Below are positions 11,372 through 62,614 of a stretch of DNA of 64,000 nt, one piece after another (the stretch's first letter is position 1; each line of letters begins with the position of its first letter). A program made the translations under genes and the position numbers. The notes beneath the pieces were generated by a model that worked only from the letters and a program-made list of their open reading frames with translations, made no database searches and was not told the origin of the DNA. The stretch lies in NCBI GenBank assembly GCA_951406725.2, contig OX597824.1:12524001-12588000 (forward strand). Reading direction: 5' to 3'. The stretch comes from Octopus vulgaris. Its lineage: Eukaryota.

Positions 11372-11550
11372 TCACAATGGTATTGCACGGATATCATCAT
11401 TCGTTGGGGCATAAGCGAGGCCAGACAGGTTGCCCTCTAGCGTCATTGGTGTTTCGTCAGGTCTTTCCAACTGAAATTTCTGTAAGATGTTTGTAAAAGC
11501 CAGGAAAGCTTCCATATTGGCTAATGACATTCCTGGACACATTCTTGGAC
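11372..11550 (-). CDS. CYP copy B terminal exon 8a (heme Cys)
   Basis: ttgtag|GPRMCPGMSLANMEAFLAFTNILQKF...IRAIPL*; AATAAA (minus strand) at 11025-11030. Confidence 0.92.
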
Positions 11551-12322
11551 CTACAAATAAAGCAGTAGTTATAAATTAAACAACACACACTATGTATGCT
11601 AAATATGTATCATATACAAGTGATAAAAATTAGACAAGTCGTCATTGATTTTAGTTAGGTGTGAATATGTTCTGGCTGTTATCTCCTACACCCTTTATAT
11701 AGTCGAACAGACTTCCAGTCATAGATACACACGCCCTGACCATAGTCAGATGTTAAAAATGGATTTCCAGAAACTACAACCATCTTGATGGTACCCCGTG
11801 TATTTAAGCACACGGGATTGCCTTCAAGATGACTGTTAATATAAAGGGAGGTAAATGATTCCCATAGCGCGAAGTTATAAATTTGAAATTGAAATCGAGG
11901 AATCAAGTAATTTTATTAAAAATATCTTATTAAATGAATAAGATAAACAAATCGAGGCATGATCACAGAAATAAGGATATATCTCGGGAGAAAAAATGAC
12001 CAAATATTTGTTTAGAGAATAAATATTCTATGTAGCGTATTTAGTGGACCATTGATGCTTATTTTGTTGAAATGATGAATATCAATACGCACTTAAATAA
12101 GATTTGAAGTAGATTGCTGTTTTATAGTGTCTCGTTTTTACTAATATCAAACCAACTCTGGTGATTCTACAATTCAATAATTAAATCTCCCCTTAACAAA
12201 CAGTTTTAAAACAATCATTAGATAGTCTAGCTCTAGATCAAGGCAAATGTTGTGTTGGTCACGTCTGGGAACCGTTTGATTATAGATATACTAAATCATT
12301 AAAATCTATTTACAATACTTAC

Positions 12323-12529
12323 CCGAACCGAAAGGTAAAAAAGCCTCATTTTTCTTTAACTCATTATTTTCATCAATCCATCTTTCAGGACGGAATTCCT
12401 CTGGTTTATCCCAATAATTCGGATCAGAATGAGCTTCCAATAATAAGAATGAAACGAGAGTACCTTTTGGAATATCATAACCATGAAGAGTTGTTTGAAC
12501 TTCAGCGGTGTGTGGAGCAGTGAAAGCAG
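12323..12529 (-). CDS. CYP copy B exon 7 (PERW, start of heme loop)
   Basis: ttgcag|AAFTAPH...GYDIPKGT...FRPERWID...FLPFGS|GTAAGT. Confidence 0.93.
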
Positions 12530-13052
12530 CTGCAAAAAAGAATCTTTGTAAATATTAACAGAGCCCAAATTAACGATAATCTAAATTAAATACGTTACTA
12601 TGGATATCATAATAACTTTGATGTAATTATTCTGTGACACCGTTATAGGCATTAATTAATGTGGAGTTGTATTGAAACAGAAATTTCGTTCCGTAACATT
12701 GTTGCTGTAAAATTGGGTATTAAATTAGTCTGTGTCGCAACGTTAGAGATCTGAGCTTATGTAACACTGGATTGACGAAATGTTGTAATGTAACAATACA
12801 GATTAGAACTGAAAGAGAATTGATCATGTCAGGAGGAGTTGACTTTCAGGGACGGTATAACCAACAAAGTTTGAGATTATATTACAAAAGTGCTTACTAA
12901 CAATAAAAACAATGTAATTCACAAGGAAATTTTGCCATTAACACAGGGATGTAAAAGTTTTGGCGCGAATATCATTGGCGTACTGATTCAAGATCGATAT
13001 GAATTACAAGAGATATCGTTGTATTATGAAAATTGCATGACGGCCTTCTTAC

Positions 13053-60900: not shown

Positions 60901-61945
60901 TCACATCATTCATGTATTTGGCATGGCTGCATCAATGATCTGACAGTATTTGTCTCTCTTATTCAATATGACAATATCCAGCTGACGGTGTTCGGTTACA
61001 CGATCCGTCTGAAAACCATAGTCCCAGAATATCATTAATTTTCCAGAGGACGTATTAGTATAGACCATTGTATAAGGAGTGAAAGGAGAAAGCTTGTCGA
61101 GTATTTGATAAATAGTGACGAAGACCAGCTGCAATATGCCGCGAAAGATATAGGTGTCTTTGCAAATGAAGTGATGGGTAAGGAAGAGTTTAACCAAAGA
61201 GATGAGGAGAAGAGAAATGAAGACCTTCTTGAAATGAGAATGTGCGGACAGTTTGAAAGGAATACACAGGGCGTTAAGGATAATACTGCATCGTGGACAT
61301 GGCTTGAGCGAGGTGGTTTGAAGCGTACCACCGGAAGCTGGATCATTCCTGCCCAAGACCAGGCTCTCGCTACCAATTCAGTGAAGTATAATATCTATAA
61401 AACTTTTGACACCCAGAAATGCAAACTCAGTGGAAAGAGTGTGGAAAATGTGAGCCCCCTGGTAAGTGGATGAGAAAGCCTTACACAAAAAGAATGCAAG
61501 CGCCGCCACGATATTTATTATCCTTAACGTCCTGTGTATTCCGTTCAAACTGTCCATGCATTTTCATTTCAAGGTTTTTTATTTTCTCGTCTTTGAATTT
61601 CAAGCAATTCATTATCTAGTTCGTTAATTTTCCCTGCATGTGCACCCACCACAGAATCAGGGTTCACTCTATAACGTTCCTGTTCCTCATCTTTAACCGC
61701 GCCCTCACCATTTCCCTGTTCCTCCTGTCTACTCTTCTCCCCGCTTTCAACTCCTACCTCTCTGTTTTCAACTCCGACCATCCTTTGTAACCCATCCTCA
61801 GAGTCTCTCAGACTCTCACTAATCCGAGATATTCCAACTCCAGTTAAGTAACCCATCCTCCTAATCTCTCTCACTTGGTTCATTAGTTTATTTGCTACTC
61901 CTATAAGGGTGGAAGCTATGCAGAAGCGATTGAGAGTGGGCACTG
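57905..61945 (-). mobile_element. Decayed RLE-LINE fragments in copy C intron 1
   Basis: Homologous to 1-3300, plus FWDFNTQTDRVIEARRPDL and HPKIGVATLHLRRKEGGRGL segments. Confidence 0.8.
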
Positions 61946-62247
61946 CTCCGGCCCATTACGTTCTGAATTCAAATTTTGATTTAAAATCGCGAAAGGAGTA
62001 AGTCGATTAAATTGACACTGGTGTTCAACTGGTAGTTATTTTATGGAACCCGAAAGAATGAAAGGAAAATCGGCCCCAACGGCTTTTGAAATCAAAGTTC
62101 AAATATTGGCGTGTCAATTGGTGCCGCAGAATGGTTGCAATCCAAGACATATGTATATCTATTTGTCTGTTTGTCTGTCTATCTGTCTGTCTGTCTACAT
62201 ACATATGAGCACATGAATACATTAATTAATGTAAATTAATGACTTAC

Positions 62248-62614
62248 CTTTGTTTCGGAATACTTTATCTAAAGCATAGACTGAACTCCTTCCATTCAGA
62301 TGTTGTCCTTTTTTTACTAGTCCTTCCAAAATCGTTTCAGTTTTACATACAAACACGTAGTTATATGGTCCAATTTTGAGTTTAAAAATATCGCCATATT
62401 GTTTTTTTAGCTCTTTCAACATTGAATAAATATCGGTAATGGAAAGAACCTGAAGTAGATTTCCAATTATTGGAAGAGCTCTAGGACCCGGTGGTAAATT
62501 GTAGTTAAATTTTGGTGGTGTCATAAACCATCGTATAATCAGTAAAATGACTAATCCAAATAACAAACTTTGGACACTAACATTCTCTGTAAAAAGTAAT
62601 GCTGAAAAATCCAT
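62248..62614 (-). CDS. CYP copy C exon 1
   Basis: ATG at 62614; donor G|GTAAGT; 367 nt. Confidence 0.93.

What the first reader, a model, noticed from the sequence alone, without database searches (positions are those of the whole stretch)
11372..62614. Young tandem P450 duplicates whose amino-acid differences cluster in substrate-recognition sites
Seen: B and C have near-identical introns and shared TE relics but differ at about 28 of 498 aa by hand count, often in adjacent multi-codon clusters. Examples (B/C): GILLSS/GIAFSS and SSLY/SSVY (B'-C region), YIGVFVP/YISVFAP (F helix), IEK..EKVRS/IQK..EMVKS (G helix), NLFYT/NMFHT (N-terminal I helix), IAAFT/IASVT (just after ExxR) and LSGLAY/LSAIVY (C-terminal beta turn). 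Exon 6 has no amino-acid change. Established: these positions correspond to Gotoh's SRS1-6 of CYP2 enzymes. Inference: rapid, possibly positively selected diversification of substrate specificity (e.g. dietary toxin or xenobiotic metabolism) in a lineage-specific CYP bloom.
Basis: partly seen in the sequence, partly recalled or inferred. Interest (0 to 1): 0.72.

Follow-up and report, generated by a model that had tools for sequence, protein, structure and literature searches.

The report
Octopus P450 copies varying at active site
Young tandem copies of an octopus cytochrome P450 gene swap DNA with each other yet differ most at positions predicted to line the substrate pocket, which likely reflects selection for different substrates, a pattern already known from vertebrate detoxifying P450s.

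Summary
Observation confirmed. B and C are intact 8-exon CYP2-like genes differing at exactly 28 of 498 residues; 11 lie in substrate-recognition sites (SRS; 4.3 expected, p=0.0013) and 4 at 13 published CYP2B specificity positions (p=0.004). They are two of five young copies in a 16-gene array. Over the five, SRS DNA varies 1.8 times more than composition-matched introns (p=0.001) and the 13 positions 3.6 times more (p=5e-5), so relaxed constraint alone is not enough. Corrections: no B/C difference is in SRS2; the excess sits mostly in the 13 positions; synonymous change in SRS is raised too, so a rate-only model fits as well as omega>1; and the copies are gene-conversion mosaics, so B versus C is no simple clock. 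Other animals carry recombined pockets; the C-type and B-type marker residues each appear in one run. C is transcribed and spliced. Substrate and tissue remain unknown. A second heme/SRS6 last exon lies behind B, C and D. Verdict: a new, well-supported example of a known kind of P450 bloom.

The parts
34429..34795 (-). Gene B exon 1 (ATG, membrane anchor, PPGP, start of SRS1; L112)
20970..21195 (-). Gene B exon 2 (L125/L126 = CYP2B 114/115, SRS1)
17526..17652 (-). Gene B exon 3 (F helix; G221, V224 just past it)
16028..16184 (-). Gene B exon 4 (G helix, SRS3)
15487..15623 (-). Gene B exon 5 (I helix, SRS4; L296, Y298 = CYP2B 290)
13053..13149 (-). Gene B exon 6 (K helix ExxR; no B/C amino-acid change)
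12323..12529 (-). Gene B exon 7 (SRS5 A372/F373, PERW)
11372..11550 (-). Gene B exon 8 (heme Cys444, SRS6 G483 L484 A485, stop)
62248..62614 (-). Gene C exon 1 (V112)
50690..50915 (-). Gene C exon 2 (A125/F126)
47537..47663 (-). Gene C exon 3 (S221, A224)
45918..46074 (-). Gene C exon 4 (M250)
45358..45494 (-). Gene C exon 5 (M296, H298)
42880..42976 (-). Gene C exon 6
   Evidence: spliced joint to exon 7 in X3, X4
42150..42356 (-). Gene C exon 7 (S372/V373)
   Evidence: spliced joints
41227..41405 (-). Gene C exon 8 (A483 I484 V485)
   Evidence: exact spliced contig in X4
3603..3969 (-). Gene A exon 1 (rest of A lies left of the window; A = P0023)
9229..9406 (-). Second last-exon copy 8b behind B; acceptor intact, frame shifted near its end
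39149..39327 (-). Second last-exon copy 8b behind C; frame open, acceptor reads AT in this assembly

Best explanation
B and C are two of five young tandem CYP2-like P450 genes that exchange DNA tracts and whose amino-acid changes concentrate at positions predicted to line the substrate pocket, likely because selection favours and keeps different pockets for different, probably foreign, substrates. Shown: gene structure, five-copy clade, mosaic ancestry, the enrichment, and an above-intron rate at those codons. Inferred: that the CYP2B positions 114, 290, 367, 477, 478 and 480 shape specificity here as they do in mammals; that conversion homogenises intron interiors but is held back, or fixes new combinations, near the pocket-coding exons; that the substrates are dietary or environmental.
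For: Five-way variable share: introns 226 of 3022 sites (7.5%), synonymous 28 of 375 (7.5%), SRS nonsynonymous 25 of 167 (15%; p=0.001 vs introns, 0.006 vs synonymous; 0.002 and 0.03 at kappa 1), 13 key codons 11 of 27. Matched for base and CpG: SRS 34 vs 18.9 (p=0.001), key codons 14 vs 3.8 (p=5e-5); survives dropping any one copy, collapsing clustered changes and matching for conservation in 83 distant homologues. Own GY94 fits: omega SRS 2.0 vs 0.74 outside (p=0.007 against 1), M1a vs M2a p=6e-5; with a separate tree per exon omega about 2 (p=0.018), key codons about 4.5 (p=3e-4). B vs C: SRS nonsynonymous 12 of 167 vs near-exon introns 2.6%, p=0.003. Codon 125 (CYP2B 114) takes A, L, I here and V in O. 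sinensis proteins; codon 485 takes V, A, I. Key positions vary again in two other young sets: Argonauta 3 of 16 variable columns (p=0.006), copies I/J/K 3 of 22 (p=0.016). Conversion: 94 informative sites, neighbours incompatible 0.39 vs 0.57 overall, p=1e-4; 6 topologies in 8 exons. B/C introns 2.6% within 300 nt of exons vs 1.3-1.8% further in, p=1e-4. Fold: pLDDT 91, best matches CYP2B/2A, TM 0.84-0.85.
Against: Synonymous sites in SRS 9 of 61 vs 19 of 313 outside (p=0.03; 0.06 if one path-dependent change is dropped); with a free local rate omega SRS is 1.1-1.2 (p about 0.7) and the rate-only model has equal or better likelihood. SRS without the 13 key codons: 21 vs 15.5, p=0.11. B/C SRS nonsynonymous vs B/C synonymous is borderline (p=0.03-0.05). 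SRS-wide enrichment is not significant in Argonauta (3 of 16, p=0.45) or I/J/K (5 of 22, p=0.23), and key positions not in F/H/N/I (5 of 106, p=0.12). Omega outside SRS is about 0.8, so constraint is weak overall. C's A483/I484 is seen in 1 of 6 runs covering it and B's A372/F373 in 1 of 5, so they may be polymorphisms. Conversion inflates site-model tests (PMC1866355, passage read). One haplotype per copy; five sequences only.
Confidence: 0.62

Rival explanations
1. No selection for new pockets: the young copies are redundant and nearly unconstrained, and the SRS excess comes from locally deeper conversion genealogies or mutation clusters that happen to overlap SRS codons.
For: Whole-gene omega 0.92-0.98; synonymous change raised in SRS; rate-only model fits as well; D has a damaged exon-4 acceptor and two older copies are broken; marker residues are not seen in most runs.
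Against: Gives no reason why the excess falls on 13 positions named beforehand from mammalian mutagenesis (14 vs 3.8), recurs there in two other clades, and survives CpG matching, event collapsing and circular shifts (p=0.008). All five frames stay open.
Confidence: 0.27
2. B and C are two alleles of one locus that the assembly placed in tandem.
For: They are the closest intron pair (1.8%), some tiles only 0.3-0.7% apart; X3 carries a transcript mixing B-type and C-type letters, and X3 and X4 show no B-type exon 6-7 joint.
Against: The stretch behind B, C and D is about 1% apart in all three pairings, and three copies cannot be two alleles; upstream of exon 1 C is closer to A (1.9%) than to B (2.9%); in exons B groups with D; first introns differ by kilobases.
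Confidence: 0.07
3. Selection is real but the substrates are endogenous or sensory (lipids, steroids, chemical cues), not dietary toxins; this can coexist with the best explanation's sequence part.
For: CYP2-clan hits include CYP2J, 2U1 and 2R1 types, recalled as fatty-acid and vitamin D enzymes; a review reports low or negligible EROD/ECOD activity in wild Octopus vulgaris (PMC5397501, passages).
Against: In vertebrates, clustered birth-death P450s with selected pockets are mostly xenobiotic enzymes and endogenous-substrate P450s are stable (PMC1866355, passages).
Confidence: 0.2

Closest known systems
Vertebrate xenobiotic P450 clusters under birth-death evolution, e.g. rodent Cyp2d (PMC1866355, passages read)
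   Same: Dense local cluster, recent duplications, broken copies, selected sites near the substrate pocket.
   Different: Independent cephalopod expansion; here conversion is pervasive, whereas that paper found it limited; no substrate known.
Primate CYP2D6/2D7/2D8 cluster (PMC4419802, passages read)
   Same: Gene conversion among tandem copies with SRS less homogenised and dN higher in SRS.
   Different: There dN/dS in SRS was 0.79 or lower; here about 2 against a shared synonymous rate, in far younger copies.
Woodrat CYP2B variants (PMC3425548, passages and Table 3 rows read)
   Same: Many near-identical copies with different combinations at the same 13 positions (114, 367, 477, 480 vary in both).
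   Different: Mammalian CYP2B proper with a known plant diet; that study found no codon under positive selection; the octopus proteins are only 33-37% identical to CYP2B.

Membership tests
Cytochrome P450 (PF00067) | Profile match, heme Cys motif, ExxR, AGxDT I-helix motif, P450 fold | tested here: met
   PF00067 390.6 bits, cut-off 22.8; C444, R366, G307 invariant in 93 sequences; model pLDDT 91, TM 0.85 to CYP2B35
CYP2 clan | Closest sequence and structure relatives are CYP2-clan enzymes | tested here: met
   Top solved relatives CYP2B, 2C, 2A, 2D, then CYP17/1/21; named rows among the 120 listed homologues are CYP2-type or hypothetical. No clan-wide tree was built.
CYP2B subfamily (the database label '2B4-like') | More than 55% identity for a subfamily, about 40% for a family (nomenclature rule, recalled) | tested here: not met
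   37% to a bat CYP2B11, 33-34% to CYP2B structures
Unstable xenobiotic-type P450 cluster | Dense tandem cluster with lineage-specific births and deaths | tested here: met
   17 exon-1 starts in 444 kb, 16 with all 8 exons, 2 of them broken; five copies 90-95% alike vs one O. bimaculoides protein at 76% among the hits
Unstable xenobiotic-type P450 cluster | Positive selection at substrate-binding positions | tested here: inconclusive
   Above-intron rate and omega>1 with shared synonymous rate, but rate-only model fits as well
Unstable xenobiotic-type P450 cluster | Turnover of foreign compounds; expression in detoxifying tissue | not testable with these tools
   Runs are coded, without tissue; no assay
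Concerted evolution with SRS escape (CYP2D type) | Conversion tracts between copies | tested here: met
   Runs of conflicting partitions, p=1e-4; exon trees differ
Concerted evolution with SRS escape (CYP2D type) | Copy-specific SRS residues kept across species | tested here: inconclusive
   An A-like pocket is kept in O. sinensis P0022/P0029 except at 125; none of the 9 SRS states private to B or C appears in the O. sinensis proteins compared, most of which are partial

The most novel reading that the evidence does not exclude
Octopus builds a polymorphic, combinatorial P450 repertoire: conversion reshuffles pocket residues between copies so that individuals carry different enzymes, and a second heme/SRS6 last exon (8b), left from an older neighbour gene, is spliced in as an alternative C-terminus.
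Probability: 0.2. Interest if true: 0.68.

Novelty: new member of a known kind. Interest (0 to 1): 0.42.

Why it matters
If selection is confirmed, this is a very young, tractable case of P450 pocket diversification in a mollusc, converging on the residues known from mammalian CYP2B, and it names candidate enzymes for the little-known cephalopod phase I metabolism (PMC5397501 calls it poorly understood). The principle itself has been known since Gotoh 1992 (cited in PMC4419802), so the surprise is moderate.

Tried and rejected
First fold on a 14-sequence alignment failed (pLDDT 36.6) and was not used. B-versus-C whole-intron divergence (1.8%) as neutral baseline was dropped: synonymous divergence exceeded it (p=0.007) because intron interiors are homogenised; near-exon and five-way baselines were used instead. 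No holder is on record as RNA; only spliced joints were counted as RNA evidence. No exon 7 to 8b joint in 4 of 4 runs laid and no B-type exon 6-7 joint in X3 or X4: contigs show presence, not absence. Pfam gave 0 of 6 hits on intron segments. codeml is not available; M1a/M2a and partition models were run in an own implementation, M7/M8 were not run. Two look-ups of earlier scan findings returned nothing. Paper searches (for octopus P450s; 32 for SRS selection with conversion; 33 for duplicated-exon splicing in P450s) showed no listing on this cluster; only titles and abstract starts were seen for those, subscription journals are not covered, and no supplements were read. PMC13500379 (passages) concerned CYP3A and was not used. 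Two broken older copies and an orphan exon 1 were left out of the tree and rate tables.

Full report
What is there. The window is G000:C11:12524001-12588000. It holds two complete minus-strand P450 genes, B and C, and exon 1 of a third, A. Each has 8 exons with GT-AG ends and 498 codons. B is identical to P0001 and A to P0023, which their sources label Octopus vulgaris 'cytochrome P450 2B4-like'; no protein identical to C was among those compared. In 444 kb around the window there are 17 exon-1 starts, 16 genes with all 8 exons, two of them broken. Z, A, B, C and D form a young clade, 23-47 residues apart, whose nearest outside protein is O. bimaculoides P0003 at 76%. The proteins are CYP2-clan-like but not CYP2B (37% identity); the model (pLDDT 91) matches CYP2B and 2A folds.

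The observation. B and C differ at 28 residues, as counted by hand, with all quoted examples and none in exon 6. I mapped positions to CYP2B4 by the alignment. SRS limits are recalled from Gotoh (CYP2B 97-118, 199-206, 234-241, 287-305, 360-370, 471-478); a passage in PMC8469730 gives similar regions for CYP2A6, and shifting or resizing them keeps p between 0.001 and 0.017. A second, published list is the 13 CYP2B specificity residues of PMC3425548, Table 3. Eleven of 28 differences are in SRS (4.3 expected, p=0.0013) and 4 in the 13 positions (125, 298, 484, 485; p=0.004). None is in SRS2; 221 and 224 follow the F helix. Of the ten pairs, B/C has the strongest SRS p-value; five pairs have p above 0.05, so the five-way test is the fairer one: 19 of 74 variable columns in SRS (p=0.008; circular shift 0.026) and 6 of the 13 positions (p=0.006).

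Faster than neutral? Enrichment could be mere tolerance. Across five copies, introns near exons (226 of 3022 columns) and synonymous sites (28 of 375) both vary at 7.5%, nonsynonymous sites outside at 6.1% (58 of 947), SRS nonsynonymous sites at 15% (25 of 167) and the 13 codons at 11 of 27. Matching for base and CpG gives 34 vs 18.9 for SRS and 14 vs 3.8 for the 13 codons, but only 21 vs 15.5 (p=0.11) for the rest of the SRS. The signal survives collapsing clustered changes, dropping any copy and matching for conservation. Codon models give omega 2.0 in SRS (p=0.007), and about 2 (p=0.018) with exon-specific trees. Against this: synonymous sites in SRS are also raised (9 of 61 vs 19 of 313), and a model with a 2.2-fold local rate and omega 1 fits as well. 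That is expected if selection shields these stretches from homogenisation, but also if the local genealogy or mutation rate differs by chance. Replication is partial: the 13 positions are enriched in the Argonauta trio and in copies I/J/K, the SRS as a whole is not; in F/H/N/I the reverse holds. At deeper splits omega is about 0.4 outside SRS and 0.5-1.5 inside.

Gene conversion. The 94 informative sites fall into ten partitions that come in runs (neighbour incompatibility 0.39 vs 0.57, p=1e-4). Introns place B with C, exons place B with D, and 8 exons give 6 topologies. Of the 28 B/C differences 8 have both states in other copies, 9 are private to B and 11 to C; some private states recur in O. 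sinensis or O. bimaculoides proteins (for example G221, M157, V189, V112, A372). B/C divergence is 3-4% in tiles holding exons 1-5 and falls to 0.3-0.7% inside intron 2; 2.6% near exons vs 1.3-1.8% further in. Other pairs show a weaker trend of the same sign, so part may be an alignment effect.

Expression and variation between animals. X4 holds spliced contigs without any difference from C across exons 6-7 and 7-8, including A483/I484; X3 holds C-type exons 6-7; X2 holds a spliced exon 6-7 joint with the B-type start of exon 7. X1, X2 and X3 carry G483/L484 on an otherwise C-type exon 8, a combination that none of the five assembled copies has; by parsimony it is the state from which B, C and D each changed. 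X18 and X19 lack the B-type letters at 372-373 in the contigs laid and show letters that read as Ser485. The runs bear different organism labels, contigs can be chimeric beyond about 30 letters and drop rare variants, and tissue is not given. So C is transcribed, a B-type exon 7 is transcribed in one run, and pocket combinations likely differ between animals.

Artefact check. B and C as collapsed alleles is unlikely: three units are about 1% apart behind the genes, and C's upstream region is closer to A. Read depth could not be checked.

Side finding. A second last exon, 8b, with heme Cys and a different SRS6 lies 2-2.5 kb behind B, C and D; it is frame-shifted in B, lacks its acceptor in C and is intact in D. 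It is closest to exon 8 of older copy E, with pN/pS near 1. O. sinensis isoforms P0022 and P0024 differ only in this exon. No joint to it was seen in 4 runs, so use as an alternative exon rests on that annotation.

Verdict. Most likely a young xenobiotic-type P450 bloom in which conversion shuffles the copies and selection diversifies a few pocket residues (0.62). This works like the vertebrate clusters of PMC1866355, PMC4419802 and PMC3425548 (passages read in each, not whole texts). My searches showed no paper on this cluster. New member of a known kind; interest 0.42.

Noticed in passing
window 9229-9406 and 39149-39327 (-); G000:C11:12591792-12591970: Extra last exon 8b (heme Cys, SRS6) behind B, C and D; O. 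sinensis isoforms P0022/P0024 differ only by it; X1 and X2 contigs show an intact acceptor at 39328; no spliced joint seen.
   Followed up: partly
G000:C11:12622529-12626085 (L009): Orphan exon 2 and 3 remains of an E-like gene upstream of D; with 8b they suggest the young clade sits inside a former gene. O. bimaculoides P0004 has E-like exons 1-2 and is identical to P0003 from exon 3 on: alternative 5' end or annotation chimera.
   Followed up: partly
G000:C11:12599208 (L007): Copy D exon-4 acceptor reads GG; an in-frame AG lies 9 nt further on and would drop three residues.
   Followed up: partly
G000:C11:12729000-12826000 (L020-L029): A second young set of near-identical copies (I, J, K and two broken ones); J differs at CYP2B positions 363, 367 and 477.
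   Followed up: partly
P0009, P0027, P0028: Three Argonauta copies vary at the positions matching 125, 126, 375 and 487.
   Followed up: yes
P0003 vs P0007/P0026: The young clade is 76% identical to its nearest O. bimaculoides protein, whereas copy G is 88-93% and E 82% to theirs: faster evolution or non-orthology.
   Followed up: no
window 48170-49530 and 18200-19600: GC-rich block in intron 2 shared by the young copies, with a reverse-transcriptase-like YIDD motif (recalled; Pfam negative); the B and C blocks are only 0.3-1.4% apart.
   Followed up: partly
G000:C11:12479255-12527969: Z is inverted relative to A, B, C and D (tail to tail with A); the database model P0002 of Z lacks exons 4-5 although both are intact.
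   Followed up: partly
G000:C5:120.6-120.9 Mb, C26:1.4-2.5 Mb, C15:39.7-39.8 Mb: Further dense P450 clusters in this genome.
   Followed up: no
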